Below, piece after piece: positions 5,901-58,261 of a DNA stretch of 64,000 bases. The notes under the pieces are model-generated. The model was not told the origin of the DNA. It worked only from the letters and a program-made list of their open reading frames with translations, and did not search any database. The translations under genes were made by a program, and so were the position numbers. The stretch is from Mobula hypostoma (taxonomy: Eukaryota). How positions within the stretch are numbered: position 1 is the stretch's first letter; each line of letters begins with the position of its first letter. The stretch spans positions 114,826,001 through 114,890,000 of the forward strand of contig NC_086097.1 of the NCBI RefSeq assembly GCF_963921235.1. Direction: 5' to 3'.

Positions 5901-7079
5901 CTCCTTGGTTGGCTCCTTGATGTAATGCTCTAAGAAACCACACTGAACAGTCTTTATGAGTTCATCCTCAAGAAAGATATTAAAATCTATAAAGAGTAAT
6001 GTAAATAATTAGAAATAACAAAAATGTATTCTAAAACTGTATTTAATTAAAACATGAATCAATAGAAAATCTCAAATAAAATAATTTAAAGCAAAATACT
6101 GATATCTGCCTATTGAGAATACGCATTGAAATGAGTGTGGTGTCACATCTTATCTATTCTGAACAGCCATTGGATCAGAAAGACAGATTCTCTTGCTAGA
6201 ATCCACTCTCATCTTTTCACAACTCCCACTGGGCAGCAGGTGCTGAAGCCTGAGGTCCTGCAACACTAGGTTCAAGAATGGCTACATCCCTGAAAGCATC
6301 CAGTTCTTGAACCATCTGACCAAATTCAGATCAGCACCGTTTAGTGACACAAGGACCACTTTGAACTAAAATGGTCCTTTTCATTGTTTTAATTATGTTC
6401 TCCTTGTAAAAATTGAACTGAGCTGAAAATGAACATTCCTGGACTGTCTTGATGACTTTGTGGTTTGATGTTTCTTATTCCGTGTTTTTCACTCGTTTGC
6501 TTTGCCGTTTGTGCAATTTGTTCTTTTTTTTGTACGCTCTGGGTTTGATGTTTTTCTTTGAATTGGATCCAGGGTTTTCTTTATTTCATGGCTGTCTGTG
6601 GGAAGATGAATCTCAGGTTTGTATACTGTATACATACTTTGATAATAAATATACTTTGAACCTTTGAAAATTGTGTACAATTTATGCTTAATTTTTTTGT
6701 GTGAATGCCACTTAAGTGATGCCATGTGCCTGTGATGCTGCTGCAAGTAAGTGTTTCATGGCATCTGAGAGTAGATGTAGCTGGCATATGAAAATAAACC
6801 TGACTGCAATGTAGTGGCATGACTGAAACAGCAGCATCTCTCACTGAATTAGTCCCAGAATTACAACACATCCTCACGTTGATTTACTTATTTATTTATT
6901 TTTTTCCTTCTATATCATGAGTTGCATTGAACTGCTGCTGCTAAGTTAATAAACACATGCCGGTGATAATAAACCTGATTCTGAAAGATCTGTGACTTGC
7001 CCACATGGAAATGGATGCCTGCTGGAGATCCCCTTTGGAACCTCTGGCCAGATTTAGCACCAATTGTTTCTGTTTATTC

Positions 7080-7348
7080 ATTCATTCATTGAGGTACAGC
7101 GTGAAGTAGGCCTGTCCAGCCCTTTGAGCCACACTACCCAGCAATCCCCCGATTTAATCCTCGCCTAATCAATGACAAATTAACCTAACAACCACTATGT
7201 CTTTGGATTGTGGGAGGAAACCAGAGCACCCAGAGGAAACCCACGTGGTCATGGGGAGAACGTACAACCTCCTCACAGGCTGCGGCTGGAATTGAACCAG
7301 GGTCCGCTGTACTGTAAAGCGTTGTGCTAACCACTACACTACCCTGCC
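7080..7348 (-). mobile_element. V-domain SINE (HE1-like)
   Basis: Minus strand has a tRNA-like head with GGTTCAATTCC B-box followed by GGGTTTCCTCTGGGTGCTCTGGTTTCCTCCCACAATCCAAAGAC (V-domain). Similar copies at ~10850-11100, 24270-24590, 38305-38620, 51900-52170 and 52655-52925. Confidence 0.7.
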
Positions 7349-9010
7349 ACCTTATACGTTGCCAGATTTCTGTTGTAAGGATAAAAACAGATACTAAACA
7401 AGTGCAGTGTTTATTGGACATTACTCTTGGGTTTTTAGCCTAAAGGGACCAAAAAAGTTACTTTCATGTTTAATAGCTCATGTCAATTAGTGTAAATTCT
7501 GTTGATCCTTATTCATACTTCCAGCAATACACATGAGTTCCCAGGCATGCTCCAAGATGTCCGAGGGGCCAAATGAGAGGCACACGGTACTCAGATGCAG
7601 CGGTTCTGAGTAGAAATCTAGAGCAGCGGCATGGACAGGTGATGAAAGATACCTGCAGTCCAGACCTCCACTAGGCGCTCGAACGCCATGCGAGCAGGAA
7701 GCGTGAGGGCCGGTCAGTTGCTGAGCCCAGAGTTCCTGCCTGGAGTTTGTCTGGAGTTCAGCATCTCATCGTCAGCTATTCTGAGGGTAGATAATGAAGA
7801 TCAGCGCATGAAGGCCAATTGGAAGTCCGGAAGTCAAAGACTGATGGCTGAAGCCTGGAGACTGGAAGTCTGCCTAGAGATGGAGGACTGCCTGTTGGGG
7901 GGGAGGGGGAGAGGAAAAGGGGCTTGCCTTGCTTTGTTGCTTGTTGTGTTCTGTTTGTCTGTGTTCTGTGTTGTTCTTCTGAGCATGTTGGCACCTGAAT
8001 GTGTGGCTACACTTACTCTGGCACATCCTTAGGTGCGTTGGTTGTTAACACACACGGCACATTTCACTGTATGTTTTGAGTAATGTCTTGTACAAATACA
8101 TTACTAATAGAAGAGATGCAGAGAAGGAGTCTTGTCCTGTGCCCATGACAGAGCAGAAGGAAGGGCCAGTGCCCATCCTGCTCTCACATGCAGCAGCTGA
8201 TGTTTAGTTTTATGACATCCTCTTGTTCATCACCCAGATGAGGTTCTGATGTACAAACTAGGTCCTTCTCCTGGTGACACCAATAAGGTGTCTATTTAAA
8301 GTGTAGCACTGTACCTTTTAGAAGCCATTCGAAATTTCCAGAAAAACAGGTTTGCTTGAGTGCTGGTGAATTCCTGATGCAGTGCCACAGGGTGATACAG
8401 TCGTAGAGTCATAGAGCACCACAGCACAGAAACAGCCCGTCGGCTCCTCTGTTCTGTGCTAAACTGTTGTACTGCCTAGTCCCATCGACCTGGACCATAG
8501 CCTTCCATACCCCTCCCATGAGTGTACCCATCCAACGTTCTCGTCTGATGTACTTCTGAGGCTTCTTCCTACTGCAAGCTTCCTTAGGTAGGAATGGAAG
8601 TAGAGGTCAATGGCTTGTAGACATTCGTCATGACAGGATATTAGGATAACAATTACGTGTAACCTCTTTAACTAGGATCATCAAGCATCACAAGTAGCAA
8701 CTAATTGATAATGCGTGCCTGGTCATCCTTTCCTAGTGCTAAGATAACAGCTTGCAGTAAATAAGATAAGATAAGATAAAACTGCATTTATCCCAAAGGA
8801 AATTATTGTTGCAAGGTAGCTCAGTCAGAAATATATACTTTAAAATACATAAAGTAAGCATTGAGGAACGAAAAAATACCAATTCTGCATTAAAATGTAA
8901 TAGTGCAAAATACAGATGTGCAATGAAATGATATACTTCTATACTTAGCAACACACATAAAAGTTGCTGGTGAACACAGCAGGCCGGGCAGCATCTATAG
9001 GAAGAGGTAC

Positions 9011-9046
9011 AGTCGACGTTTCCGGCTGAGACCCTTCGTCAGGACT
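9011..9046 (-). ncRNA. Minimal type I hammerhead ribozyme motif
   Basis: Reverse complement reads AGTC-CTGACGA-AGGGTCTCAGCCG-GAAA-CGTC-GACT. Confidence 0.7.
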
Positions 9047-9729
9047 AACTGAAAGAAGAGCTAGTAAGAGATTTGAAAATGGGAGGGGGAGGGGGAGATC
9101 TGAAATGATAGGAGAAGACAGGAGGGGGAGGGATGGAGCCAAGAGCTGGACAATTGATTGGCAAAAGGGATATGAGAGGATCATGGGACAGGAGGCCTAG
9201 GGAGAAAGAAGGGGGGGGAGCCCAGAGGGTGGGCAATAATGGATGAGATACGATGGGGAAGTGGGGCATTAACGGAAGTTAGAGAAGTCAGTGTTCATTC
9301 ATGCCATCAGGTTGGAGGCTACCCAGACGGAATATGAGGTGTTGTTCCGCCAACCTGAGTGTGGCTTCATCTTTACAGTAGAGGAGGCCATGGATAGACA
9401 TGTATAGAATAAGTATAGAATGGGTATAGTATAGTATAGTATAAGCATAGAATGGGTAGCCTCCAACCCGATGGCATGAACACTGACTTCTCTAACTTCC
9501 GTTAATGCCCCACCTCCCCCTCGTACCCCATCCGTTATTGCCCATCCTCTGGGCTTCCCCCCTCCCCCTTTTCTTTCTCCCTAGGCCTCCTGTCCCATGA
9601 TCCTCTCATATCCCTTTTGCCAATCAACTGTCCAGCTCTTGGCTCCATCCCTCCCCCTCCTGTTTTCTCCTATCATTTTGGATCTCCCCCCCCCCCACTT
9701 TCAAATCTCTTACTAGCTCTTCTTTCAGT

Positions 9730-9767
9730 TGGTCCTGACGAAGGGACTCGGCCCGAAATGTCGACTA
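9730..9767 (+). ncRNA. Minimal type I hammerhead ribozyme motif
   Basis: TGGTC-CTGACGA-AGGGACTCGGCCC-GAAA-TGTC-GACTA: helix I, CUGANGA core, helix II, GAAA and GUC cleavage triplet. Confidence 0.7.
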
Positions 9768-10282
9768 TACCTCTTCCTGTAGATGCTGCCTGGCCTGCTG
9801 CATTCACCAGCAACTTTTATGTGTGTTGCTTGAAATTCCAGCATCTGTACATTTTCTCGTGTTTGCGTACTTCTATACTTGAGGAGAAGTTGTGGAGTCT
9901 TCTCTCACCCTGTTGCCCCAGAAACTACAGTGTAGAGTAGAATGCTGGCCACCACTGAGCCACAGAACATCTGTAGCATAGTTCTGCAGACATAATTGAC
10001 AGTGTCTTCACCTTGACCGCACTGAAGGTTCTTTAGCACCTCAAGTCAAAGTCATTTATTGTCATGTGCACAAAAACATGCATGCACAGCTGAAATGATG
10101 CAGCAGTGTCACAGACACATAGCATCAGATAAGCACCATTCATTAGAATTCACAAAGCAAACATAAATTATATACGTTTTTACAAGAAAGAAAATGACTG
10201 GTGCAAAGTTTTCAAGGAGTTCCAGAGCTGAATAGTTTTAGGGAAGTAGCTATATTTCCCTAATCCTAGATCCTAAGAACTT

Positions 10283-31179: not shown

Positions 31180-31560
31180 CATGACATTTTCTCAGCTTCG
31201 TGCTGAACTGAGACTGAGGCTGTGGCCTGCTCTGGGCTCCGTGATGTGAGGGCCCGCCACGTTTGCTCAGTTCTGCTTTGAACTGAAGCTGAGTCTGCGG
31301 CCTGCTCTGGGATCCGTGATGTGAGGGCCTGCCATGTTTGCTCGGCTCGGAGCCGAACTGAAGCTGAGGCTGCGGCCTGCTCTGGGCTCTGTGTTGTAAG
31401 GGCCTGCGACATTTACTTGGCTCTGCGCTGAACTGAGACTGAGGCTGAGGCTCTACCTGCTCTGGGCTCCGCCACTGAAGGCTCTCCGATGTTTACTCAG
31501 CTCTGTGCTGAACCGAGACTAAACTGTGGCCTGCTCTGTCTGCTCCGGGCTCCATGTCTA
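31180..31560 (+). repeat. Minisatellite, ~63-65 bp unit, 5-6 degenerate copies
   Basis: GAACTGAGACTGAGGCTGTGGCCTGCTCTGGGCTCCGTGATGTGAGGGCC...GTTTGCTC is repeated. Confidence 0.85.
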
Positions 31561-34069
31561 TGGACTCAGTTTTTTTCTGAATGCTATTTGCTTAATTTTA
31601 TTGTTTGGACAATTTGTCTTTTTTTCTGTCTGCACATTGAGGTTTTGATAGTCTTCATTTTTTATGGGTTCTTTTGGGTGTCTTTGTTTTGTGGCTGCTT
31701 GTAAAGAGACATATCCCAATGTATACATTTTTTGATAATAAATGTACTTTGTACTTTGAATTTTCTGAATTCAGGTTCATGGCCACACCAACCCTCCAAT
31801 ACAAACATTTCATATCTCCAAATCATCCATTTTCCTGACGAGCAATATCCTTTCAGCCTCTTGGCTTCTCCATGATCCAAAATCCTCTCTGGCGCCAAAT
31901 CTGTCCCTCTTTCCAATCTCAACCTGTGATCCTACATCTGAACTCAGGTTTCCCACTGTGATCTGATTTGTCCTCAGCTGATCTCCAGTCTACCCCTGTG
32001 ATCCAAATGGTCGGCATTCCTCAATCACTTTCCCACTCTTCCATGATCTTCCAGCATGTGTCACCTCCATCTTCTGATCTTCCTCCATGGTCAGTTCCAC
32101 CAGTAGAAGCTCCTCTTTAAGTTCCCATCACCCCTAACTCTCCAGGCTCTGCTCTCCTTTGGAAAAAGGTGACTGCAGACAATTGATGGGTACTAGGCAG
32201 CATACGCACCTTGTATGGAGACAACCTTGATCTAACGGACTGTCTCATGATTTCAAATTTCAAACTAAGCAATGGCTGGAGACTCAGGGGCAGCCTGTCC
32301 TGGGTGTGTGAGTCAGTGGGGAAGGGGCTTGTTCTGTTGTTGCTGCCTGTGTTGTTCTGCTGAATGTTGTTGGCACGTGATGTTGTCACCAGAATGTGTG
32401 GGGACACTTGCAGGCTGCATACCCTATGTTAAACTGCAGAGTGCCGCACTGCCAGGAATGCCCTTTTCAGATAAAATGTTCTTTTTCTTTGTGATCTAAA
32501 TAAAAGACTCCAAAGGATGTTACGGAGTTCTGCTAATCTCCTGGCTGATAACAATCCTCAACAAACATCATCGCAACAGATGAGCTAGCTATTCGCCAGC
32601 TGTGAGTCCTTGCAATGCTCAGGTTGGCAGCTGTTTACTACACAGTAAAATACTTAATTGGTTGGAAGACACTTAGGGATATCCTGATGTTATTGAAAAA
32701 CATTGCAGGCATACATAAGGGCCATAGCAACCTTGATGACCACTGGCTTTGTTAGCTAAATATACTCTCAGTGAGCACTTTATAAGCTACACTTGTTCAA
32801 GTGCTCGTTAATGCAAATATCTAATCAGTCAATCATGTAGCAGCAACTCAATACGTAAAAGCATGCAGACGTGGTCAAGACATTCCGATGTTGCTCAGAC
32901 TAAACATCAGAACAGGGAAGAAATGTGATATAAGTGACTTTGACTGTGGACTGATCATTGGTGGCAGACAGGGTGGTTTCCCGGGATTTTCATGCACAAC
33001 TGTCTCCAGGGTTTACAGAGAATCGTGCAAAAAAACAAACAAAAAATCCAGTGAGCAGAGTTCTGTGGGTGAAAACATCTTGTTAATTAAAGTGTTCAGA
33101 GGAGAGTGGCCAAACTGGTTCAAACTGACAGGAAGGCGACAGTAATTCAAATGAACATGCATTACAACAGTGGCGTGCAGAAAGGCGTCTGTGAATGCAC
33201 AACACTTCGAACCTGGAAGTGGATGAGTTACAGCAGCAGAAGGCCACGTACAAACTCCCAGCAGCCTCTTTATTAGTGTAGCCCCCCCGGTAAGCCTCAG
33301 GCTCACTCAACTCACTGTCGTCTAGGGGGAGCAGCCTTCAGCCCCGCCAAACTGGGTAATCAAGTTGGTGTGGACGCTGTGCGATGTACCCCATCCGCAA
33401 TACACCATATGTGATTAAATGATTACAATTTATAGATATTACTGGAACTATATAATTAATAGATATAAAATATGAAAAAGAAAGTAAAAGGCACCAAACT
33501 TATCAAAGTTCAATCTCTTCGTGCACAAACAGATGGAGCTCTAGTAACGATCCTCTTCTCACCATTCAATCCCTTCCGACCACCTCGATGCGCTGCCTGG
33601 GACCAACCACGGTCGTCGACCAGACGCTCCACACGAGTCTGTCTTCGTCTCCTCTCCTCGCTGAACACCCTGGACCTTGGACTCCGGCTCGGGGTCCGCC
33701 CCGTCGGCCAGCTCACAGCATCGCGTCCTCTCTCTCTCTCTCCCCATCGCGCCTTCTGCCCAAAAACCCGCGTATCACAATAGCTTACAGACACACAAGA
33801 AAGAATAACATCTATCCCAATTGGTTAGCAACCGAACACAACTCCTCTATAACCCAAACAAGCTGCTAGCGAGAGAACTTTCTCAGCAGTTAACATAACA
33901 AAGAAGCCATTTTGATTAGCCTACGCAGTAACATAAAAGAAGAAACCCCTTACACTCTCCCCCCACTAAATAAAGTCATGTCCTCATGACTTCTAAATAA
34001 ATCGCCAAGCATTCCTGCAGACACAAAAACCCAATCCAGGTACAAACAGTGACATTGCTCCCCAAACAG

Positions 34070-36290
34070 TGGATCTTACATCCGGTCCCACGGGTGCTAC
34101 ATAGGCCAACCTATCTGGGAGTTTCCTAATCCTCTAAGACCTCCATACCCCCTCACCTAAACCCTTCAGGCTCAGACACTACTGGGGATACCTTGGATTT
34201 GCTTACCAAATCCTCTTTTGATCTCTCACTCATGCTCCCACTGCACTTCGGAGCCCCCTGTCCTGTGTCCGGGGCTCCGCTTCTTTTCCTTCAGGGTCCT
34301 GCAGTAACCCAGGCTGCCCACAGCTAGCCCTCTCCACTGCACCTGACTCAGTGGAGGAAGGGCCAAAGGTCTGTTCCTCAATCGAGGGGAAGTTAGCGAA
34401 AGGCAGCATGTACCACACATCCAGCGCATCATTCTTCGAATCCATATTCTTCCTCATTTCCTCAATCAGTAGCTGCTGTTTGATTTTCTCCGAACTGAAG
34501 CACTTAGCCTGGGCTGCCTCTGCAACCTCTTCAGCCTCCTGCAGTCGAGACGTCAGCTTCTCATCCGACTCCTCCAACTCTCACCCCAGGCTCAGTAGTT
34601 CTGACGCACGCTTTGTGTCCATCTCCATCTGGGACGCAATTACACCACCAGCTTCTTCCAATCTGTTCTGGATCAATGTCTTGATTTTCTGCTGATCCTT
34701 TCAAAGGTTGGTCATTGTTTTGTCTCTCTGGATTAATTCATCAGTAAATGACCGCAGTTTTGGCTTGGAATTCCGTTTCTCCGTCTCCACTTTGACGAGC
34801 ATGGACTCCAATTCTTCAAGGGTTGTCCTGGGCTCCGGCACTCGCCTCACATCATCGTCCTCCAAGGCGAATCCAAACCCTAGGCAATCATCCACATACG
34901 CCAGAACTCCAAACACCTCCACATTCCTCATGGTCTTCCTCATGCCCTGCGGGAAGGTTGCAGGGGCTCCGGATATGCCCTGGGGCATCTTTTCGGATCC
35001 AAAGAATCCTAGGGAACCTATAACAGCCATCTTCTCCTTGTCAGCCTCACTTATCTGAATCTGGCAACATTCACTCCTCAGATCCTGCACATTAAATCAC
35101 GTCGCACCATTCAGACAGATCATTGCGTCTTCGGCCCTCAGGGCCGTATTCTGGTCAATGACAGAGCACCTGTTCAGAGTCCTATAATCCACACACACAC
35201 TGCCTACGTCTTCCACGGCTACAGGGGCCAGTTGCTGCGACCTCTCTCTCACCGAGGTGTCTTCAGTGGTCAACTCCCCTCCCTCGTGGCATTTCGGAGT
35301 GTCTACTAAGAGGGTCTCACCCTCAGATACTTCCCTCAGGCCGTAACACAATGGGGTCTCTTTTAAGTTCGGTACCAGCCCAAGGCTGTTACACACGTCC
35401 TCATGAGCAGCTCGAAACGCTGGGTGCACAGACAATGCCCCTATGAACTCCAGGTTCACTAACCAATCATCGTCTTCTGGATAATCACTGGCACTGGTAC
35501 CCCAAACCTCCAGTGCCCTTAATGTTGTCAAGGGTAAATGCTTCAGACACTGGTTGTAAAATGAACTGTACAACAACTTGACCTGCGCCCCGGTGTCGAG
35601 GATGGCTTTAGCATAGCTTCCATCTATTCGTAATGACACACTGGGGCGTGGTCCCTCTAAGCCTTCAGGAATAGGGTCTTTTCCTTTCAGAAGTTCCTTG
35701 GTACATTGCTGGGAACATGCTCCCCCAGAGACCCCAAGCCGTTCCCCCACTGGGCCTCCACTAAATTTCCTGACACCTCTCTGATCAGCTGAACAACTGA
35801 GGGAGGGACTGATCCCCTGAAATGATCCCCCTGGCACTGCAAGCAATTTAGCCGCCCTCCTAGCCAGAGAAGATACACTGAAAGCTTTCCCCCCGCTTTC
35901 AGATTACCGGCAGCTGTCACTACGGTGTGATTGAACCTGACAGTTCTAACACCGTCAACAGCCCGCCTACTCAAACTTTCAACCAATCCCTGTCACTCTC
36001 CCTCAACCAAGCACTGCCACTCATCTAACAACTGAGAGATCCGCTCCGCCCACATCTCGAACGCCTCTGCCCCTTTTGGGGTGGACAATATCCCAAAAGC
36101 CAGGTGGAGCCTGCCATAGCTGGAACATTTATTCGCAGACACTATCTCCGAATTAGACCACTCTTTCCTCTCTCTCCTAACAGTATGGACAGCCCGTGGT
36201 CCTACCACCAACTCATCAGTGCCAGTCTGAACTCGAACAAAGACTCCACCCAACACGCATGCAGTAATAACCAGCAGTCCCAGAGAGACA
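34070..36290 (-). pseudogene. Deleted gag-pol: PNMA-type gag, aspartic protease, truncated RT, myosin-like segment, pol C-terminal tail
   Basis: YGRLHLAFG...GAEAFEMW (gag), ILDTGAQV (protease), [21 protein letters not shown] and AYVDD (RT), RS*RIRKLPDRLAY (tail). No RNase H or DDE core seen. Confidence 0.88.
34419..34840 (-). pseudogene. Captured sarcomeric myosin heavy chain rod fragments (MYH16-like)
   Basis: [46 protein letters not shown] / RLEEAGGVIASQMEMDTKRASELLSLG*ELEE / [30 protein letters not shown], matching conserved MyHC rod motifs LAKVEKEK, RLEEAGGATSAQIE..KKRE.E...RRELEE and RLQEAEE..EA..AK..SLEK.K. Confidence 0.85.
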
Positions 36291-38676
36291 CATATTACTG
36301 ATTTAAACAGGGCAATCAAGCAGCACACAACTGAATTCAATCCCGGTTCCCAGTCGAGCCCCCAAATGTAGCCCCCCCCCCCCCCGGTAAACCTCAGGCT
36401 CACTCAACTCGCTGTCGTCTAGGGGAAGCAGCCTTCGGTCCCGCCAAACTGGGTAATCAAGTTTGTGTGGATGCTGTGTGATTGTACCCCATCCCACCAA
36501 ATAACAGACAAAAAAACCATATGTGATTAAATGATTAGAATTTATAGATATTACTGGAACTATATAATTAATAGAGATAAAATATAAAAGGAAAGTAAAA
36601 GGTGCCAAACTTATCAAAGTTCAACCTCTTCATGCACAAACAGTTGGAGCTCTAGTAATGATCCTCTCTTCACTATTCGATCCCCTCTGACCACCTCAAC
36701 CCACCACCTGGGACCAACCACGGTGGTCGACCAGACGCTCCACAAGAGTCTGTCTTCGTCTCCTCTCCTTGCCGAAGACCCTGGACCTTGGACTCCGGCT
36801 CGAGGTCTGCCCCATTGGCCAGCTCACAGCATCGCATCCACTCTCTCTCTCCCCATCACGCCTTCTGCCCAAAAACCAGTGCATCACAATAGCTTACAGA
36901 CACACAAGAAAGAATAACATCTATCCCAATTGGTTAGCAACCGAACACAACTCCTCTATAACCCAAACAAGCTGCTAGCGAGAGAACTTTCTCAGCAGTT
37001 AACATAGCAAAGAAGCCATTTTAATTAGCCTAAGCAGTAACATAAAAGAAGAAACCCCTTACATACGTTACAGGAGGTACCTAATAAAGTGGCCACTGAG
37101 TGCATGTCTGCTGATGCAAATGGAGCTTCTCTTTGTGAAATGTGACACTCCCTGAGGTGCTGCCAGAGCGGGTAATTTTCATGGCTCCATTGATACAACA
37201 CAGAACAGGTAATTGTCAATCAACTCAGTGCTTTGGTTCATCCGACTCCAGTAAAACAAATGACTGGAGAACACTGCAGGCTAATTCCCACAGTTAGGAA
37301 CTTTATGACCGCCAGAATCACATTACCTCCTGGGTTCCAGCACGCAGGAACCTGCCTGACCTCCAAGACAAATGTATTTGATATAAAATGTGCATGGACA
37401 GCAACTTGCACGGCAAGCTCATTAAAATTGATGGACAGAAAGTCACAGGGAGCACACCCGGAATTTCTTGATCCGAGCTGTCACACTGCCCGAGGAGGAG
37501 AAATTGCAAATGTACTATAACATACACAAAACACGTGTCTCAGAATTCAGAGAAAACTTTGAACTGGACCACGGAATGAATTGAAACTGTGAAGAGCCTA
37601 ATTTCATGCATCTATTTTCACATACTCTTTATTAATATGAATGCAAATTCCACTGCATGAAAGAGAAAAATGGTTCAAATGGTTCAATTTAATATTGGAA
37701 AATGTATGCAGTTCTTATTGAAATTCTTACTCTTTGCAGACGTAAACCAGACAGAACAAAGCACCAAAGAATGAATGACAGAAACATCAGAATCTCAAAG
37801 CCCCCCTCCCCCCCACGCACAAGCAACAAGAGAAGCATCAACGCTCCCCCTCCCCTCACTTACACCAGAAAAAGCACTCCCCCACCTCCACCATGCAAGC
37901 TGCCAAAGAGAACTTGGTCTAGACTCCACCAAAAACTACAGTCCAGAACCCAGTAAGTCAGTACCTCAAACAGGCTCTCTCTCATTAGCCAGCGAGTGGA
38001 GTAAAAGCAGAACAAAAAGGGCAGCTTTTAATTGAACACTAATGATCACATTGCAGTAATTAATAAAGGCTGAAGTCACTTTCTTCCACTAGCTTCTTTG
38101 AGAGATGTGAAGGTTTGATAGGCAGATCACTCTGTCAGTCACAATGAAACACTATTAGCTACTTTTAAATTAGCCAGTCCAGTGATTCAGAAAGCTGAGC
38201 TGTTCAAACCATTAGTATTTGAAGAGGTTGCATGCTCTTCATGTATCTATACCATAACGATGATATTGTTTTAAGACTGAGGAGACACACTTAAACATTA
38301 TACACGGTAGCATTCGTGGTCAGTGCAATCCATTACAGTGCCAGCAATTGCCAGTTGGGGTTCGATTCCTGCTGTTGTCTGTAAAGAGTTTGTACTTTGT
38401 CCCTGTGATCCAGGGGATTCTTCTTGGTGCTTTGGCTTCCTCCCACAATTTGAAGACGTATCGTTAGCGTTAGGTTTTAGGTTTAGTAAACTGTAGGCAT
38501 ACTATGTTGGCACGTAAGTGTGGTGACACTTGTGGGCTGCCCTCAGTACAATACTTAGCGATTTGATTTGATGCAAATGGCACTGTATGTTTTGATGTAC
38601 CTGCGACAAATAAAACTGATTGCTCTCCTTGTTAAATTCTACTCAGTGACAGATATTTGTTTGCTACTTCTTTGTT

Positions 38677-44790: not shown

Positions 44791-47018
44791 CACAAATGCA
44801 AGCAAGATTGCATTCAATTTTCTCTTAAACATCTTTAATGCTTTGACATGAAGTACTGTTTAAGGTAACCCTAAAGATTTCAGAATTGGACAGAGAACTT
44901 CACCTGTTCGAATCATAAATTTATATGAGTTTAGCATAACAAACTTGGGTTATCTTCTCTGAGGATTGCACCTTGTCACAGCGAGCTCCTGAGTTCCTGA
45001 GAGTAATACTGTCTGGAACTTAGTCCCATGGCAGGAAGGTCAAGGGGCACATTCCAGACAAAGAACGATCCAACTAAGACCTTAGTGGTGGAGCTGGCAG
45101 AAGATGATGACACGTCACAATGGCAATGAAGTCAGAGGATGGCTGTAGCAATGAATGGCTCCCAGTCATCTTATGTGCCATGCCAGTGGACCCTGACCCC
45201 TGTTACGTACCCCGCAACAGGTTAAAGAAGCAGCAGAAATGGAACAAACCTGGAGTCTGGTTTTGCTTTTAACTAGTGCTATTTTTATTAGTAACTACAC
45301 AATGTAGTGATATAAAACCAGATAAATCAAACAGGTTAGCAGAACTTATGTATATACAGTTGTGTAAATATAAAACCCAAACTTCTTCAAGCTTAGGTGG
45401 TAAGGGATACAGTTTCATGATGGAATATAAGATAGTTCAGTTCAATGTTCAGGTTAAGTAATGAGAGATATTTGTAATCCAAAAGGCAAATGTCGTGAGA
45501 TGGCTATTACGTTGATATTCCACAGATTCCACGACAGCAATACCAGATAACGATAGTAGTAGGTTTTATCCCTGAAGCTGTTCCACTCCACACATGAAAT
45601 ATCAATGACAGTGATCTTCAACGAATATCCTTTTAACACAAGTGATACCACACCCGAATTCAGCTTCAGGTCACCCCAAAGTGGTGGCCACAGAATATTC
45701 CAACAGAATCCACGTATGAATTATCACCAACAGTAGTCTATCACTGAGGTACCATCTTTAAGTGGTAAAACTACCAATCCAGGCAAGGATTATCACACAC
45801 AGGTAGTTTCCACACAAGGTTACCCCAAACACACAACTGTAATACCCACTTATCCAGTTCTACGACATACGAAACAACTCCAACAGTGATTTGCCACAGG
45901 GGTGCCTTTCTTCAGTGAACTACCACACCCAGACAAGGGTAACACACACGTGGTATTCACAAAGGTTTTCCCCTCACCAGAGAACCCACTCCTGTGGATT
46001 AACTAAGTGACAATCACACTTCTGTAGTCGAATGGAAACAAACTCACCCTCACGGGCTACTTAGAGAGAGAGTCCAAACAGTGATCTCTTTGACATTGGG
46101 TTTCTTCTGTTTCAAATCTATCGCTCCTCTCTTCTCTTCCTGCAAACTTGTTCTAGTTGCAGAAAACTTGTGAGAGTCATTTATCAATACTCAGGATCGA
46201 TCTAAACTCACCCCTTTTGGGCTACTGAAAGTTTAAACCAGCGAACGATTCACTGGTGTATTCCATTGACCGAATCCATCTTGACTCTGAGCGTGTTTTT
46301 CTGTGTCTGTAACTGTCCTTGTAAAAAGTAAACATGCTGCAGAGAAACCATAACATCGATTGTCCGTCAAATAAATCCACCTCTCTCTCTCTGGAGCAGC
46401 TCAAACAGGGTCCAAAAGTCAGTCTCCTTCTCCTGACGTTTTAAAGTGACAGTCCACAGAAAATATGAACCCTAGGGGTATAAAACCCCTACCCCCAAGA
46501 AAGCAAAATTTTGCTCAAAGAGCAAATTTTTTTTTAAACTGTACATTACGGAATATAAAGCAATACATATGTGATTAACATGTATCACATTCCAGAAGCG
46601 TATACAATTACTAGTTTCTATTTCATTTTTGAACTTAACATTCAAACAGTCAATCTTATTGTCTTTTATTGTTATTGTCTTTATCTTTCACATGCTTTGT
46701 TACAAAAAAAAGTCTAATTCCCGCAAAACCAGATCCCGTTTTATTCAAAATGGCATTTGATCACCCATTGTCCCTTTTCCGCTTCGAAACATAACACTTA
46801 GCCATCATATGATCATCTTGCTTACCAGCTTGCATAAGGCCTTCAAAGACTCCCTGAACTTTACTCTGCACAGGTGCCAACTCACCACTCATGTTTTCTA
46901 AACTAAGCCCAGTCGCTGAACTTCCAAACAGGTTCTTTGTTGCAAACAAATCATTAATTTTATCTCCAAGAACTTCAGTTCTACTGGTTTCCATAATAAC
47001 ACCCACAGATGATCCCTC

Positions 47019-48218
47019 CTAGTCAAAACAACACTTCAAGTTTTGTCTCTCCACACCACAAACTTGGTAAACAACCCCACGTTGTTTATTTCTAAATTCC
47101 AAAACATATTGTAGCAAATTAACATGTAGTGTCTCAGTATCTGAGAGAGCTGCTTCTCTCAGCAAGGTCAAAGGTCTTGAAATCAATCCAAACTTCATAG
47201 GTACTTTATTCAAAAGTCCAGAAACAGCACACTTCCCAATACCGTCAATAACATTTATCTCACCAATTTTCATCTCATCACCTGCTTTTAGAACCCTATC
47301 TAACACAAGTGACTGAGAATCCTCAATTTCCACTAGTACAAAGGTTAACCCCTTATTCACTGAACCAAGTCCATCTGACAGAAAAGGACTGCATTCCTTT
47401 TCCACCGAGTCAGACAACTCAGACCCTAACTGAGTTTCAACACAAGGTTCAGTACCCTGTGAATCCACAGGTACTTCAACAAGCTGAACACAGGCAATTG
47501 GGACTGCCTCTTCTCCTGGGCTTTCATCACTAGTCCCAGTTTCCAGGTTACCCTGATCCTCCCAGCTACTCTCTGAGAAACTCTCACCTGGAGTAAACTC
47601 AACCTCGTGGGTTAGAACAAATTCGTCTGCTAACCTAGCAGACTCCTGCAAGGTAGTGGCACCCTTTTCATCTAGGTATGCCCTTACATCATCGGGGACA
47701 CACTTCTTAAACTCTTCAGTCAAAACCAGCTCTTTCAAGCTGTAAAAATCAGCAGGGTCCAACACTGGACCTCTTTGCTGCAATATCTCTATCTTTTCTA
47801 TCTCGAACCACCTCTGTCTTTCTGCTTCATCCCTTGGCTTGTCTGCCTCCTCAGCCTCGAGCTGTCTTACTCGTAACTCAAACTCGAGCTGTTGCTGTCT
47901 TCGCTTCACCTCGGCCTCGATCCTTAATCTTACCATCCGATACTGGTGCTCAAACCCGCTAGGTTTACTTTCAGAAAACAACTCCGACTCCTCCACTTTA
48001 AACACCTCCTCAGGTACATAATACTCGGCTATTGTCCTCTTTATCTGTGACCCTCTCATGGTCGATTTCACCTTAGTAAGTTTCACCTTTTTAGCAATAC
48101 TCAACAACTCAAACCTTCTGCCGTCCTCTAATGCCTCAGAAGTTGGCGCTTTCAGAAATTTACCAGCATCCATTTCTGCTGTTTTCCACACAAACAAATC
48201 AAAAGGGATTTTCCCCAA
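47019..48218 (-). CDS. Open 399-codon Gag-derived mosaic ORF (Gag N-terminus, coiled coil, SCAN-like capsid segment, catalytically dead protease remnant, integrase-tail fragment)
   Basis: LKELVLTEEFKKCVPDDVRAYLDEKGATTLQESARLADEFVLTH (Gmr1/SCAN-like); EIEDSQSLVL where DTGASQS is expected; NLLQYVLEFR. Likely ATG at 48173. Expression unknown. Confidence 0.7.
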   Translation of the reverse strand: MGKIPFDLFVWKTAEMDAGKFLKAPTSEALEDGRRFELLSIAKKVKLTKVKSTMRGSQIKRTIAEYYVPEEVFKVEESELFSESKPSGFEHQYRMVRLRIEAEVKRRQQQLEFELRVRQLEAEEADKPRDEAERQRWFEIEKIEILQQRGPVLDPADFYSLKELVLTEEFKKCVPDDVRAYLDEKGATTLQESARLADEFVLTHEVEFTPGESFSESSWEDQGNLETGTSDESPGEEAVPIACVQLVEVPVDSQGTEPCVETQLGSELSDSVEKECSPFLSDGLGSVNKGLTFVLVEIEDSQSLVLDRVLKAGDEMKIGEINVIDGIGKCAVSGLLNKVPMKFGLISRPLTLLREAALSDTETLHVNLLQYVLEFRNKQRGVVYQVCGVERQNLKCCFD

Positions 48219-48330
48219 TCAATTCGATTAAGCCCCCAAACAATTTTAAAAAGGCTCCAAACAATTTGTTCATAACCTGGATGCAGGCCCCAGTTTTGTT
48301 AGGGACCCGGGATGGGTTAAAATACAGCAG

Positions 48331-48372
48331 GTAAACAGGAGATCCTGGGCTCAGATCCCAGCAGTGCCTCCA
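48331..48372 (+). tRNA. 3' half of tRNA-Thr including CCA, serving as an extended PBS
   Basis: GTAAACAGGAGATCCTGGGCTCAGATCCCAGCAGTGCCTCCA versus remembered vertebrate tRNA-Thr ...GTAAACAGGAGATCCTGGGTTCGAATCCCAGCGGTGCCT+CCA. Lies 4 nt from the LTR edge. Confidence 0.85.
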
Positions 48373-49531
48373 ATCTTGTTACGTACCCCGTAACGGGTTA
48401 AAAACCAGCAGAAATGGAACACACCTGGAGTCTGGTTTTGCTTTTAACTAATGCTATTTTTATTAGTAACTACATAATACAGTAATATAAAACCAGATAA
48501 ATCAAACAGGTTAGCAGAACTTATGCATATACAGGTGTGTAAATATAAAACCCAAACTTCTTCAAGCTTAGGTGGTAAGGGATACAGTTTTACGATGGAA
48601 TGTAAGATAGTTCAGTTCAATGCTCAGGTTAATTATTGAGAGATATTTGTAATCCAAAAGGCGAATATTGTGAGAAGGCATTTACGTCGATATTTCACAG
48701 ATTCCACGACAGCAATACCAGATAACGATAGTAGTAGGTTTTATCTCCAAAGTTGTTCCACTCCACACACGAAATATCACCGACTGTGATCTTCAATGAA
48801 TATCCTTTCAACACAAGTGGTACCACACCCGAATTCAGCTACGGGTCATCCCAAAGTGGTGGCCACAGATACTCCAACAGAATCCACATATGGATTGTCA
48901 CCAACAGTAGTCTATTACTGAAGTACTGTCTTCGCGTGGTAAAACTATCAACCCAGGCAAGGATTATCACACACAGGTAGTTTCCATACAAGGTTACCCC
49001 AAACACACGACTGTAATAGCCACTTAGCCAGTTCCACGACATACAAAATAACTCCAACAGTGATTTGCCATAGGGGTGCCTTTTTGCAGTGAACTACCAC
49101 ACCCAAACAAAATATATATTCACAAAGGTTTTCCCCTTACCAGAGAACCCACTCCTGCGGATTAACTAAGTGACAATCACACTTTCGTAGTCGAATGGAA
49201 ACAAACTCACCTTCCTGGGCTACTTAGAGAGTGATCTCTTTGTCATTAGGTTTCTTCTGTTTCAAACCTATCTCTCCTCTCTTCTCTTCCTGCAAACTTG
49301 TTCTAGTTGCAGAAAACTTGTGAGAGTCATTTATCAATACTCAGGATTGATCTAAACTCACCCCTTTTGGGCTACTGAAAGTTTAAACCAGCGACCGACT
49401 CACTGGTGTCCTCCATTGACCGAATCCATATTGACTCTGTGCATGTGTTTCTCTGTGTCTGTAACTGTCCTTGTAAAAAGTAAACACTCTGCAGAAAAAC
49501 CATAACATTGATTGTCCATCAAATAACTCCA

Positions 49532-49600
<69 letters not shown>

Positions 49601-51214
49601 GGAGCAGCTCAAACAGTGTCCAAAAGTCAGTCTCATTCTCCCGACGTTTTAAAGTGACAGTCCACAGAAAATATGAACCCTAGTGGTACATAACATCCCA
49701 ATCTGTTCAGGTTGGGGACACAATTGTCATAAGTGCAGTCAAGTATACACAATACAGAGTTTACCAACGGAATCCAAGGATATAATAGTTAAAATAGTTA
49801 AGTTGAATCTTTATAAAGCTTTGGTCTGGCCTGAAATGGCATAGAGTCATAGAGCACTACAACATAGAAACAGGCCCTTCAGCCCATCTAGTCTTTGCCA
49901 AGCTGTTATTATGCTTAGTCTCAGTGACCCACACAGAACCATAGCCATCCATAGCCCTTCCATCCATGTAGTTATCCAAACTTATATGTTGCAATCCATA
50001 AATTCTGCTGGCAGTCATTCCACATTCTCACCACTCTCTGAGTAAAGAAGACACCCCTCAAGTTCCCCTTTTACATATAACGTGCGAACTCTAGTTCTAG
50101 TCTCACTCACCCTCAGTGGAAAAAGCCTGCTTGCATTTACCCTGTCTATATCTCTTCATAATTTTGTATACATCTATCAAATCTCCCTTCATTCTTCTAT
50201 GCTCTAGGGAAAAGAAGACCCTAATTTATTTGTGTTCAATTCTAGATGTAACATTTTTCAAAATTGAATCTAGACCATGATGGGGGTCTGGGATTATCTA
50301 GCTAAAAGGGCTGTAGAAGCAGAAACCTCACAATTCACATCATACTCGGTCACTTGCTTGAAGAGCTGTGACCTTTAGAAATATGAACCAAATACCAGAA
50401 AATGGGATCAGGTTGTGTGGGTCACTTTTGTCTGGCAGAGACATGATGGTCAGAGACATGAATAGCCTTCTTCTGCATCTCAAATTCTCTAGGATTCTGT
50501 GGAGTTTGTTGTAAGTGTGGAAGTGTTTGGCCTTCATGAAGGCTCAGCCTATAAACCAAGGTAGTATTAGTAGTAGTAGTGCAACCACCCGAGTTGAGTA
50601 TGATGGGCTGCTAAGGAGTTATTCCCTTAATGGAAAACTCCAGAATGTTTAACATGCGGTGACTGATGCACAGCTACAACACAGTCCTTGACAGATCAGG
50701 GTCAGGATCCACTGGCATGGCATGCAGGATGATTGGGAACCATTCATTGCTGCAGACGTCCTCTGACATCACTGTCGTTGTGATGTGTCATCATTTTCTG
50801 CAGCTTCACCATTAAGGAGGTGGTTGGATTGCGCTTTGTCTGGAACATCCCCCTTAACCTTACTGGATTGGGCTAAGTTGCAGACAGCATCACTCTCGGG
50901 AACTCAGGAGCTCCCTAGCCCTCCGCCATGACAAAGTGTAATCCTCAGAGAAGGTAACCCAAGGGTGCTATGCTAAACTCATATAAATTTAAGATGAGAA
51001 CATAGTTGAAGTTCTCTGTCCAATTCTGAGTACTTTAGAGTTATCTTAGACAGTACTTCTTCATGCCAAAGCATTAGGTTGGTTAAGAGAACATTTACTG
51101 CAATGAAGGAAGGAAAGACCTGAATTATATGGAGTGTTTTCTGCAAGAGTAGAAAAAAAGTTAAGCAACAATTAAACAAAAATGATGTTGATGTACTTTG
51201 ATAGACTTATTAAT

Positions 51215-54359: not shown

Positions 54360-57300
54360 GTGATGCCTACACCGAAGAAGTTTAGATCCTCTCTTCGACG
54401 GGAGTTCAGTGAAACCATCTCTCACTGCTCCCCATCTGTTATTTTTTCGGCTCTTCAACTTTTCAACCACACTTTGACTCAGACTCGCTATTACAGCCAT
54501 ATATCCTTTCTTGGAACATGCCTCCGTCGCCAACTTACTCCAGTTGGCTTTAGGATTCGTTTCCAAGCCTCTCAATTTGGACCTTCTGAGGATCCCAGGT
54601 ACTCACATTTTATTGACTCTGCCTCTCGCCGCTTCTCCCGTCAAGCTCTGAAGGCGACTCTCTCCGCCATGAGGAGGTACTTGGTGTCCCTATCCCAGAC
54701 CCTTCCACACCTTCGGGACATTTTCTTTGCCGTCTGTAATGGTCCTACCCGTTATTTCATCCTCCGTCGGATTCACGCCTGCAATCGCCGTTTTTTTGAC
54801 TTTGTCATGTTAGGCAAAGGTCGCAAGATCCTACATCTACGGACTCCAGAGCCTGCCGGCCCCGACGCTAGCAGGCATGAACTTCAGATTGCGGCCACTG
54901 CCATTGATCTCGCCGGCTCCAGCACCTCAGGGCATATTCAAAACCCGGACTCCAGCAACGACCATGGACACCTTCACAGCGATTGCGCAACCACCAACTG
55001 CGACTCCAGCCTTGAACTCCAGGCCGGGTCTTTATGTGCTGCTATTGTGACTCCCGTCTCCCCTTCCCCCACCACCACTCCGCAGCCCCGTCTTCCTCAG
55101 ATCCCACCGTCAACTCCTGGGCCCTCAGAGGCTCCATCTTCCTCTCACCCCAACCCTCCCCTCTCCACTGACACCCCCAGCCTCCCCCTTCCCCCCTCTG
55201 ATCCCAGCTCTCATCCATGCCAGGTCTTTATCATCCCCTCCGACCTTCAACTGTCGGAGGCAGAACGCTCTGTTCTCAGTAAGGGCCTCACCTTTGTCCC
55301 CCTTCGCCCACACCTCAGCGAGTTCCGTGTTCGCCATGATGCGGAACTTTTCCTCCGCCGTCTCCGTCTCCGAGCCTACTTCTTCGGCAAGGACTCTTCC
55401 ACCCCCACCGATGACCCCTTCTCCCGTCTTCAACCCTCCTCTTCTTCATGGACACCCCGCTCTGGTCTTCTGCCTGCTCTGGATCTCTTTATTGCCAACT
55501 GCCGACGGGACATCAACCGTCTCGACTTTACCGCACCTTGTCCCCATTCCAACCTCACTCCTTCGGAACGCTCTGCTCTCCACTCCCTCTGCACTAATCC
55601 TAACCTTATTATTAAACCCGCCGATAAGGGGGCTGCTGTTGTAGTCTGGCGTACTGACCTCTACATTGCTGAGGCACAGCGACACTCGCGGATACCTCCT
55701 CTTATTTACCCCTCGATCGTGACCCCACTAAGGAGCACCAGGCCATTGTCTCCCACACCATCACCGACTTTATCCGCTCAGGGGATCTCCCATCCACTGC
55801 TACCAACCTTATAGTTCCCACAGCCCACACTTCCCGTTTCTACCTCCTACCCAAGATCCGCAAACCTGCCTGTCCTGGCTGACCTATTGTCTCAGCTTGC
55901 TCCTGCCCCACCGAACTCATTTCTGCATACCTCGACACTGTTTTATCACCCCTTGTTCAATCCCTTCCGACCTATGTTCGTGACACTTCTCACGCTCTTA
56001 AACTTTTCGATGATTTTAAGTTCCCTGGCCCCCACCGCTTTATTTTCACCATGGATGTCCAGTCCTTATATACTTCCATCCCCCATCAGGAAGGTCTCAA
56101 AGCTCTATGCTTCTTTTTGGATTCCAGACTTAATCAGTTCCCCTCTACCACCACTCTGCTCCATCTAGCGGAATCAGTCCTTACTCTTAATAATTTCTCC
56201 TTTGGCTCCTCCCACTTCCGCCAAACTAAAGGTGTAGCTATGGGCACCCGTATGGGTCCTAGCTATGCCTGCCTTTTTGTTGGGTTTGTGGAACAATCTA
56301 TGTTCTGTGCCTATTCTGGTATCTGTCCCCCACTTTTCCTTCGCTACATCGACGACTGCATTGGTGCTGCTTCCTGCACGCATGCAGAACTCGTTGACTT
56401 TATTAACTTTGCCTCCAACTTTCACCCTGCCCTCAAGTTTACCTGGTCCATTTCCGACACCTCCCTCCCCTTTCTAGGTCTTTCTGTCTCTGTCTCTGGA
56501 GACAGCTTATCCACTGATGTCTACTATAAGCCTACTGACTCTCACAGCTATCTGGACTATTCCTCTTCTCACCCTGTCTCTTGCAGAAACGCCATCCCCT
56601 TCTCGCAATTCCTCCGTCTCTGCCGCATCTGCTCTCAGGATGAGGCTTTTCATTCTAGGACGAGGGAGATGTCTTCCTTTTTTAAAGAAAGGGGCTTCCC
56701 TTCCTCCACTATCAACTCTGCTCTTAAACGCATCTCCCCCATTTCACGTACATCTGCTCTCACTCCATCCTCCCGCCACCCCACTAGGAATAGGGTTCCC
56801 CTGGTCCTCACCTACAACCCCACCAGCCTCCGGGTCCAACATATTATTCTCCGTAACTTCCGCCACCTCCAACAGGATCCCACCACTAAGCACATCTTTC
56901 CCTCCCCCCCTCTCTCTGCATTCCGCAGTGATCGCTCCCTACACAGCTCCCTTGTTCATTCGTCCCCCCCATCCCTCCCCACTGATCTCCCCCCGGCACT
57001 TATCCGTGTAAGCGGAACAAGTGCTACACATGCCCTTACACTTCCTCCCTTACCACCATTCAGGGCCCCAAACAGTCCTTCCAGGTGAGGCAACACTTCA
57101 CCTGTGAGTCGACTGGGGTGATATACTGCGTCCGGTGCTCCCGATGTGGCCTTCTATATATTGGCGAGACCCGATGTAGACTGGGAGACCACTTTGCTGA
57201 ACATCTACGCTCTGTCCGCCAGAGAAAGCAGGATCTCCCAGTGGCCACACATTTTAATTCCACATCCCATTCCCATTCTGACATGTCTATCCACGGCCTC

Positions 57301-57411
57301 CTCTACTGTAAAGATGAAGCCACACTCAGGTTGGAGGAACAACACCTTATATTCCGTCTGGGTAGCCTCCAACCTGATGGCATGAACATCGACTTCTCTA
57401 ACTTCCGCTAA
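54360..57411 (+). pseudogene. PLE RT-endonuclease ORF with few lesions
   Basis: ORFs 54360-55814, 56051-57088 and 57085-57411. Frameshifts near 55685 and 56995; TGA in place of R of PGRPIV at 55880. Confidence 0.9.
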
Positions 57412-57704
57412 GGCCCCACCTCCCCCTTGTACCCCATCTGTTACTTTTTTTATGCACACATTCTTTCTCTCACTCTCCTTTTTCTCCCTCTGTCCCTCTA
57501 AATATACCTCTTGCCCATCCTCTGGGTTCCCCCCCCCCTTGTCTTTCTTCCCAGACCTCCTGTCCCATGATCCTCTCATATCCCCTTTGCCAATCACCTG
57601 TCCAGCTCTTGGCTCTATCCCTCCCCCTCCTGTCTTCTCCTATCATTTTGGATCTCCCCCTCCCCCTCCAACTTTCAAATCCCTTACTCACTCTTCCTTC
57701 AGTT

Positions 57705-57740
57705 AGTCCTGACGAAGGGTCTCGGCCTGAAACGTCGACT
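57705..57740 (+). ncRNA. Minimal type I hammerhead ribozyme in PLE 3' UTR
   Basis: AGTC-CTGACGA-AGGGTCTCGGCCT-GAAA-CGTC-GACT: intact core with a vestigial helix III. Confidence 0.8.
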
Positions 57741-58261
57741 GCACCTCTTCCTAGAGATGCTGCCTGGCCTGCTGCGTTCACCAGCAACTTTTATGTGTGT
57801 TGCTCTCATAAGATATGTTCTCTCAACCAGGCAAATCCTAATAAATCTCCTCTGCACCCTCTCTAAAGCTTCCAGAGAACATAAATGATATGAAGAGAAA
57901 TAAAAATCTGTTGCAAGGAATACACATTGCATAAACATCACCTTTCTTCCATTTTCACATCCAACCTTGATCCCACATCTCATGATAGTCTTCTCCATAA
58001 GTTTGGACCAAGCCTCATTTTAAATATGCTGATGAGATTTGCATCATTCTTTCCATGTGGCAGTGAGTTGCATCTGCTCATCATTTTCTGTCTAAAAGCA
58101 TGATTTCTTTATCATTTTGTGAGTGATGATTCTGTACTTTAGAGCCTATTATGCTACATGTATTCCAATGCTCGCATTTCTGGAAAAACACCTGATTTTA
58201 ACAACCTTCTAATGGAGTTCTGTATCATGATAAATATACGTTGAGCGATCAAACTAATCCT

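What the first reader, a model, noticed from the sequence alone, without database searches (positions are those of the whole stretch)
34070..35846. Protease, RT pieces, myosin pieces and pol tail all remain in one reading frame despite several large deletions
Seen: ORFs starting at 35846, 35090 and 34577, and the RS*RIRKLPDRLAY tail (codon at 34148), all share the same frame (position mod 3 = 2) and are separated only by point stops. This frame crosses at least the RT/myosin junction, two myosin/myosin junctions and the myosin/tail junction. Inference: random junctions keep frame about one time in three each, so the master element was probably selected to keep a translatable fusion. Possible reasons are mRNA stability, cis-packaging, or a Gag-PR-coiled-coil protein that co-assembles with a helper element.
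Basis: partly seen in the sequence, partly recalled or inferred. Interest (0 to 1): 0.75.

Follow-up and report, generated by a model that had tools for sequence, protein, structure and literature searches.

The report
Ray retrotransposon keeps frame, not protein
This is a decayed copy of a crippled, myosin-carrying jumping gene of rays whose many internal deletions all stay in reading frame while the encoded protein drifts freely, which likely means the element needed ribosomes to run along its RNA, rather than the protein itself, in order to spread.

Summary
Largely confirmed. The stretch is the inside of a 3.8-kb non-autonomous Gypsy LTR element of rays in which MYH16-like myosin rod pieces replace RNase H and integrase; the scan has reported this capture family many times elsewhere in this genome. 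All 8 well-supported pol/myosin junctions and 2 gag junctions keep frame (about 6e-4 under a microhomology-biased null, 8e-3 at the most generous). A natural Mobula protein is open across the RT/myosin/tail junctions, and three Hypanus loci encode a 729-aa open gag-PR-RT-myosin fusion. Between subfamilies 46% of residues differ with no stop where 7-9 are expected, yet changes hit conserved and variable columns alike (33% vs 39%; autonomous RT controls 9% vs 61%), catalytic aspartates are lost in two subfamilies and heptad register is not kept. So the frame is constrained and the protein apparently is not. Corrections: the ORF ends at 34232, so the RIRKLPDRLAY tail is outside it and in frame by coincidence; gag lies in another frame, likely the native -1 overlap. 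Best reading: master RNAs were selected to be translated almost to the 3' LTR, probably to escape nonsense-mediated decay. No DNA of other copies and no expression data were available.

The parts
36367..37063 (-). 5' LTR, 697 nt, TG...CA ends
   Evidence: 48 mismatches in 675 aligned columns against the 3' LTR
36347..36364 (-). primer-binding-site-like stretch directly after the 5' LTR (resemblance to a tRNA-Pro site is recalled, not tested)
   Evidence: sequence
35687..36211 (-). deleted PNMA-type gag remnant, frame 1 mod 3; one internal stop (35995), two in-frame internal deletions, no zinc knuckle, ends at stop 35689; no ATG in this frame between 36403 and 36100 in this copy
   Evidence: (PNMA E=0.074)
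35762..35768 (-). X XXY YYZ heptamer in the gag frame at the gag/pol overlap; candidate -1 frameshift site (inferred)
   Evidence: three other such heptamers lie in the gag frame; no stimulatory structure above shuffles (z=0.26); one of its places differs in nearly all laid contigs
34230..35768 (-). pol-frame fusion ORF (512 codons, 2 mod 3): protease, linker remnants, RT piece, three myosin pieces, pol C-terminal piece; broken in this copy by stops at 35099, 34703, 34583; ends at 34232
   Evidence: P0026 aligns without gaps over 35123-34236
35445..35744 (-). aspartic protease region (pol 3-102 of P0171, 59% identity)
35205..35444 (-). three remnants of the protease-RT linker (pol 156-171, 216-230, 352-372) joined in frame
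34845..35198 (-). N-terminal part of reverse transcriptase (pol 408-525, 57% identity), YVDD kept, rest of RT absent
34653..34820 (-). myosin rod piece 1 (MYH16-like 946-1001)
34566..34673 (-). myosin rod piece 2 (MYH16-like 1138-1173), after a 143-residue deletion
34470..34580 (-). myosin rod piece 3 (MYH16-like 1377-1413), after a 208-residue deletion shared by other subfamilies
34314..34421 (-). piece of the pol C-terminal region downstream of integrase (pol 1339-1374, 33% identity)
33967..34229 (-). pol-derived tail beyond the ORF end, with the RIRKLPDRLAY motif; changes frame freely against relatives
33955..33966 (-). polypurine tract
   Evidence: sequence
33277..33954 (-). 3' LTR, 678 nt, TG...CA ends

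Best explanation
This is one decayed copy of a non-autonomous Gypsy LTR element of rays that carries myosin rod sequence in place of RNase H and integrase, and whose master copies were likely selected to keep ribosomes running almost to the 3' LTR, probably to protect the RNA from nonsense-mediated decay, with the protein sequence itself largely free to drift. Shown: the anatomy, the in-frame junctions, open natural relatives in two ray genera, near-neutral amino-acid change, frame changes beyond the ORF end, and a stop count in this copy that fits decay after insertion. Inferred: capture and deletions arose by template switching during reverse transcription; a helper element supplied Gag and Pol; in this subfamily ribosomes would enter the pol-myosin frame by the native -1 frameshift, whereas the Hypanus subfamily has gag and pol joined in one ORF; masters with an early stop or frameshift would have had a long 3' UTR, less stable RNA and fewer offspring. 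The myosin would be cargo that was kept in frame, not a working coiled coil.
For: Junctions 10 of 10 in frame; 1.7e-5 at one in three, 5.6e-4 with microhomology bias, 7.7e-3 at the most generous values. P0026 (Mobula hypostoma) is open and gap-free over the RT, myosin and tail junctions. P0004, P0014, P0019 (three Hypanus sabinus loci) are open for 729 aa. P0004 vs P0022: 134 of 292 aligned residues differ; after removing within-subfamily branches about 158 missense changes predict 7.3-9.0 stops, none present. Element-vs-element differences at conserved vs variable columns: 44/132 vs 57/148, p=0.39 (RT plus myosin); gag 9/27 vs 18/46; 1,980 autonomous RT pairs of similar identity give 8.8% vs 61%. 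Mean BLOSUM62 of RT changes -0.17 to -0.81, neutral expectation -0.4, autonomous +0.30 +/- 0.29. Protease Asp absent in 8 of 8 Hypanus proteins that cover it; first RT Asp absent in 3 of 3 Mobula birostris proteins. 2 of 10 distinct myosin deletions are multiples of 7, before skip-residue correction. The Hypanus ORF reads about 45 gag codons off frame. Four frame changes beyond the ORF end, none inside. Only 1 indel row reaches 30% share among contigs of four runs, and it rests on one contig, so the frames are not private to this copy. Minor joints: 8 of 18 entries are multiples of 3. This copy: 3 stops, 3.2-3.9 expected. Frameshift and readthrough protect RNAs from NMD (PMC10141005, passages).
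Against: No DNA of other copies was obtained, so no dN/dS and no per-copy junction count. Relatives were found by protein search, which cannot return subfamilies with a broken frame, and this copy was picked because it looked in frame. The stop test uses a nonsense-per-missense ratio from the code alone (0.046-0.057); other pairs give weaker results (2.0-5.8 stops expected). YVDD or YLDD is kept in 14 of 17 element proteins that cover it, and conserved columns change slightly less often, so weak protein constraint is not excluded. The -1 frameshift is inferred from six pol proteins that start 25-27 residues before the protease-leader motif, not from an autonomous element's DNA; eight other relatives run gag into pol in one frame; no stimulator was found. 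No gag-frame ATG in this copy. NMD as the agent is not tested at all. The one tested precedent (IAP 1D1) is reported as a protein acting in cis.
Confidence: 0.6

Rival explanations
1. The fused protein itself acts in cis, as reported for mouse IAP 1D1: a sequence-tolerant Gag remnant or coiled coil co-assembles with helper Gag and carries its own RNA into particles.
For: IAP 1D1 has an in-frame gag-pol deletion whose fusion protein is reported to help retrotransposition in cis (PMC6466679 and PMC7411935, passages). The gag N-terminal capsid piece is kept in this copy and in Hypanus. Unchecked notes report in-frame capture of SUDS3, SH3KBP1 and RABEP1 pieces by other Gypsy families of this genome; that these are coiled-coil proteins is partly the notes' wording and partly recalled.
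Against: Gag, RT and myosin pieces all drift at conserved columns; heptad register is not kept; subfamilies keep different myosin pieces; the zinc knuckle is gone and Hypanus reads part of gag off frame. A protein role would not need the frame to stay open through dead RT remnants to near the 3' end.
Confidence: 0.2
2. No selection: template switches at in-frame microhomologies, plus ascertainment of open copies by annotation and by the first reader, give the pattern.
For: In-frame share reaches 0.56 in element DNA and 0.7-0.9 for long homologies in simulated myosin DNA. Both myosin/myosin junctions lie on repeated peptides. 14 of 17 young Drosophila LTR retrocopies have their longest ORF in frame with the parent (PMC5131818, passage). 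Only open proteins can be found by protein search.
Against: Microhomology does not explain the missing stops over 46% amino-acid divergence, nor the contrast with the tail beyond the ORF end, nor the minor joints at 8 of 18 (p=0.004, rough). Even the generous null gives 7.7e-3.
Confidence: 0.13
3. A host-domesticated gag-myosin chimeric gene under organism-level selection seeded the copies.
For: Some copies are annotated as genes or gene isoforms in RefSeq. PNMA-type gag genes were domesticated in mammals (PMC5009743, passage).
Against: Many loci and subfamilies with different deletions, near-neutral amino-acid change, and neutral decay of this copy.
Confidence: 0.03

Closest known systems
Mouse IAP 1D1 non-autonomous subtype (PMC6466679 and PMC7411935, passages; the primary paper, Saito et al. 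2008, was not held)
   Same: Internally deleted, helper-dependent LTR element whose deletion leaves an open gag-pol fusion; translation matters for its spread.
   Different: IAP is a class II endogenous retrovirus with one 1.9-kb deletion and no host cargo, and its fusion protein is reported to act in cis. Here a Gypsy element kept frame through at least 10 junctions including host sequence, across ray genera, with the protein drifting.
LTR-mediated retrocopies of animals (Tan et al. 2016, PMC5131818, passages)
   Same: Host mRNA piece replaces part of the internal ORF between two LTRs; template switching at microsimilarity; further rounds of copying as a non-autonomous element.
   Different: Those are young and low-copy, and 14 of 21 older ones had loss-of-function changes. 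This family is old and abundant and its master lines stayed open.
Maize Bs1 (PMC13317346 and PMC5131818, passages)
   Same: Non-autonomous LTR element with host pieces joined into one hybrid ORF, one of them off frame.
   Different: Plant, three donor genes, 1-5 copies; read as a new chimeric gene, not as frame-only constraint.
[quoted passage not shown] 1995; title only, seen in the reference list of PMC4395149)
   Same: Helper-dependent deleted genome under selection for an open frame, whatever it encodes: what this element appears to work like.
   Different: RNA virus in cell passage, not a germ-line retroelement; no relationship.

Membership tests
Ty3/Gypsy LTR retrotransposon, PNMA-gag type | Two direct LTRs with TG...CA ends, polypurine tract before the 3' LTR | tested here: met
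Ty3/Gypsy LTR retrotransposon, PNMA-gag type | gag, protease and RT homologous to Gypsy, donor order PR-RT-RNaseH-IN | tested here: met
   57-59% identity to P0171, which has that order; weak PNMA hit
Ty3/Gypsy LTR retrotransposon, PNMA-gag type | Complete RT, RNase H and integrase (autonomy) | tested here: not met
   pol 526-1338 has no match in the element: non-autonomous derivative
Ty3/Gypsy LTR retrotransposon, PNMA-gag type | tRNA primer-binding site and target-site duplication | tested here: inconclusive
   PBS likeness is recalled only; the flanks printed show no clear duplication
Ty3/Gypsy LTR retrotransposon, PNMA-gag type | -1 frameshift between gag and pol | tested here: inconclusive
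   offset and heptamer present; no stimulator; no DNA of an autonomous element
LTR-mediated retrocopy (Tan et al. 2016) | Host coding sequence replaces part of the internal ORF | tested here: met
LTR-mediated retrocopy (Tan et al. 2016) | Cargo is intron-free (from spliced mRNA) | tested here: inconclusive
   relatives are colinear with MYH16 over up to 115-120 residues, but no genomic MYH16 DNA was on hand
LTR-mediated retrocopy (Tan et al. 2016) | Microsimilarity at switch points | not testable with these tools
   donor DNA not available; peptide repeats seen at the two myosin/myosin junctions
LTR-mediated retrocopy (Tan et al. 2016) | Further copying as a non-autonomous element | tested here: met
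   6,574-8,431 contigs laid in each of three large runs of three organisms; many RefSeq loci
IAP 1D1 subtype | Class II endogenous retrovirus ancestry | tested here: not met
   closest relatives are Gypsy pol proteins: works like it, not a member
IAP 1D1 subtype | Deletion joins gag and pol in one open frame | tested here: inconclusive
   met in the Hypanus subfamily; not in this copy, where gag and pol are offset by one base
IAP 1D1 subtype | Fusion protein promotes retrotransposition in cis | not testable with these tools
   needs an assay; sequence drift argues against a sequence-specific role

The most novel reading that the evidence does not exclude
In rays, non-autonomous Gypsy elements obey a general rule: the RNA must be translated nearly to its 3' end to spread. 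The rule filters deletions and host-mRNA captures (MYH16 here; SUDS3, SH3KBP1 and RABEP1 in unchecked notes) for reading frame alone, so selfish RNA-level selection mass-produces hundreds to thousands of open chimeric ORFs with no selection on the protein. That is a long-running natural experiment on decay surveillance of retroelement RNA and a factory of raw material for new genes.
Probability: 0.3. Interest if true: 0.75.

Novelty: new variant of a known kind. Interest (0 to 1): 0.57.

Why it matters
Open frames are routinely read as a sign of protein function. This family separates the two: stops and frameshifts are purged over about 45% amino-acid divergence while conserved residues are not spared. 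If it holds, it shows that non-autonomous LTR elements can be selected for translation as such, gives a natural test of whether nonsense-mediated decay restrains retroelement RNA in a vertebrate germ line, explains why host-gene captures in these elements are in frame, and accounts for false 'myosin-like' gene models in ray annotations.

Tried and rejected
No genome is held for this window. No locus came from metagenome contigs or viral contigs, so no DNA-level dN/dS. A search for long relatives of the Mobula myosin part found nothing among 1,689 candidates. Rfam: 0 matches over 33000-37300. No tRNA in the window. The 81 nt after the heptamer fold no better than shuffles. No RNA holder was listed on record; run X5 is only guessed to be RNA, so expression is untested. 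Codon positions of 27 shown near-fixed differences inside the ORF (13 first, 5 second, 9 third) show no third-position excess, but they are 27 of 292 rows and mostly private to this copy, so they say little. Contig depth is not a copy number and is not used as one. Rejected: the tail as part of the fusion; a working protease or RT; a coiled coil with kept register; counting the in-frame deletions of relatives towards the statistic (they are ascertained). The donor is MYH16-like: skate or shark MYH16 ranks first for 3 of 4 element proteins and ties for the fourth, by small margins. Literature searches for this family or for frame-only constraint in non-autonomous LTR elements found nothing relevant; the library lacks most subscription papers and Repbase was not searched. 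No supplements were read. No structure or complex job was run.

Full report
What is there. The finding lies inside a 3.8-kb LTR element on the minus strand, 37063 to 33277. The LTRs are 697 and 678 nt, begin TG, end CA and differ at 48 of 675 aligned columns. The 2.4-kb interior holds a gag remnant, protease, part of RT, three myosin rod pieces and a pol tail. The closest autonomous relative found, P0171 (unnamed ENA contig, PR-RT-RNase H-integrase), is 57-59% identical in protease and RT and matches up to the 3' LTR; its residues 526-1338 have no counterpart. The myosin pieces match sarcomeric rods and map to shark MYH16-like P0280 at 946-1001, 1138-1173 and 1377-1413. Named relatives are from Hypanus sabinus, Mobula birostris and M. 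hypostoma. Contigs of three organisms cover all 30 bins, 6,574 to 8,431 laid per large run. Earlier notes of this scan describe the same capture family many times; the new question is the frame.

The observation. The four coordinates share frame 2 mod 3, with 7 stops between 35903 and 34070. With all frames searched, every pol or MYH16 block from 35744 to 34314 falls in that frame. Counting only joins with a clear block on each side gives 8: pol 102/156, about 188/216, 230/352, 374/408, RT/myosin, two myosin/myosin, myosin/pol tail. Two joins inside gag keep the gag frame (the flanking hits are short, 18-25 bits). Two corrections follow. First, the ORF ends at 34232: P0026 aligns without a gap from 35123 to 34236 and ends there, and from about 34245 onward the sequence changes frame four times against P0030, P0024 and P0171. 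The RIRKLPDRLAY motif is in frame by coincidence, and the tail serves as an internal control. Second, gag is one base off the pol frame. Only one indel row reaches 30% share in four runs, on one contig, so this offset is family-wide. It is likely the native arrangement: six pol proteins of the nearest lineage (P0007, P0171, P0172, P0029, P0069, P0076, and P0028 makes seven rows, three of them one cluster) start at a methionine 25-27 residues before the protease leader, while eight more distant ones run on from gag. A slippery-form heptamer sits at 35768-35762, but three others occur in the gag frame and no stimulator was found. PNMA3, of the same gag type, frameshifts at about 20% (PMC5009743, passage).

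Is it chance? One in three is too low a null. Pairs of positions sharing 2-7 bases are in frame 35-42% of the time in this element's own DNA (56% at 8 bases, n=34) and 40-89% in simulated myosin rod DNA. Ten of ten then has probability 5.6e-4, or 7.7e-3 at the most generous values. Minor joints in other copies give 8 of 18 entries in multiples of three (17 joints, from the 15 of 95 rows and 12 of 29 insert rows shown; one strand-switch row and two insertion rows dropped; nine have unknown inserts; some lie outside the ORF); Fisher p=0.004, rough. A second test does not depend on junctions. Natural open proteins exist: P0026 across this copy's own junctions, three 729-aa Hypanus ORFs at separate loci, and P0022 with a longer myosin stretch. 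P0004 and P0022 differ at 134 of 292 aligned residues; removing within-subfamily branches leaves about 158 missense changes, for which the code predicts 7.3-9.0 stops; there are none. Five other pairs predict 2.0-5.8 each and share branches, so they are not multiplied. This copy's 3 stops fit the 3.2-3.9 expected from decay after insertion. The limit is ascertainment: a protein search cannot return a subfamily with a broken frame, and no DNA of other copies was obtained.

Is the protein under selection? It appears not. Columns conserved in 121 autonomous-type RTs (of 136 examined) or 117 myosins (of 120) change between element subfamilies about as often as variable columns: RT 14/43 vs 29/73, myosin 30/89 vs 28/75, pooled p=0.39; gag 9/27 vs 18/46. 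Autonomous RT pairs of similar identity give 8.8% vs 61%. None of 21 RT pairs or 22 myosin pairs shows a significant difference, though each is small. The changes score like random point mutations. The protease aspartate is absent in 8 of 8 Hypanus proteins covering it and the first RT aspartate in 3 of 3 M. birostris proteins; against this, the YxDD motif is kept in 14 of 17. Of 10 distinct myosin deletions 2 are multiples of seven. The Hypanus ORF passes from the gag frame into the pol frame early and reads about 45 gag codons off frame.

How it most likely works. Inferred: during reverse transcription in a particle, template switches replaced the RT end, RNase H and integrase with MYH16-like mRNA, as described for animal LTR retrocopies (PMC5131818, passages); later switches shortened gag, pol and myosin differently in different subfamilies. 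A helper supplied the proteins. Among master copies, those translated to within a few hundred bases of the 3' LTR left more offspring. The simplest agent is nonsense-mediated decay: unspliced retroviral RNAs with long 3' UTRs are targets, and frameshifting or readthrough ribosomes clear the decay factors (PMC10141005, passages). This fits a constraint on frame only, tolerance of frame changes at the far 3' end, and ORF ends that differ by some 25 codons between subfamilies. It is not tested here. The main rival is an IAP 1D1-like fusion protein acting in cis, which the drift makes less likely but does not exclude if the role tolerates any sequence. Unchecked notes on in-frame SUDS3, SH3KBP1 and RABEP1 captures in this genome suggest the rule is wider; they are leads only. 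A second deleted LTR element in this window also keeps a 399-codon open frame, not analysed.

Comparison and verdict. It is a non-autonomous Gypsy derivative and an LTR-mediated retrocopy by the features that could be tested. [quoted passage not shown] Four searches found no paper on this family or on frame-only constraint in such elements, within a library that lacks most subscription journals. New variant of a known kind; interest 0.57.

Noticed in passing
window 45201-49544, minus strand: A second deleted LTR element (LTRs about 1.17 kb, 90% identical, 2-kb interior) with a 399-codon open frame at 48218-47019 that has a weak SCAN hit (E=0.0024) and resembles SCAN-gag Gypsy proteins (atlas score 0.86, a lead only). 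It may be another case of frame retention, without host cargo.
   Followed up: partly
window 44816-45199 and 50699-51095: Inverted arms of about 400 nt (80% identical) flank that second element, as if it sits inside a DNA transposon or foldback element.
   Followed up: no
RefSeq proteins P0004, P0022, P0024, P0027, P0032, P0068, P0089, P0170: Element copies are annotated as myosin heavy chain-like, MYH16, transmembrane protein 192 isoform X1 or glutathione S-transferase theta-2 isoform X1; these names are misleading, and the last two may be element exons attached to host gene models.
   Followed up: no
protein P0031: An unrelated N-terminal part of about 57 residues is joined in frame to the element's myosin and tail pieces; possibly a host exon spliced into an element copy, or a gene-model artefact.
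   Followed up: no
window 31187-31520: Array of about 75-nt units, four to five copies at 75-81% identity.
   Followed up: no
window 8947-9830 and 57281-57804: A long near-palindromic repeat (91-97% complementary arms) with a second partial copy 48 kb away.
   Followed up: no
window 37064-37100 and 33250-33276: The element's flanks look like the two halves of a short inverted repeat, with no clear target-site duplication.
   Followed up: partly
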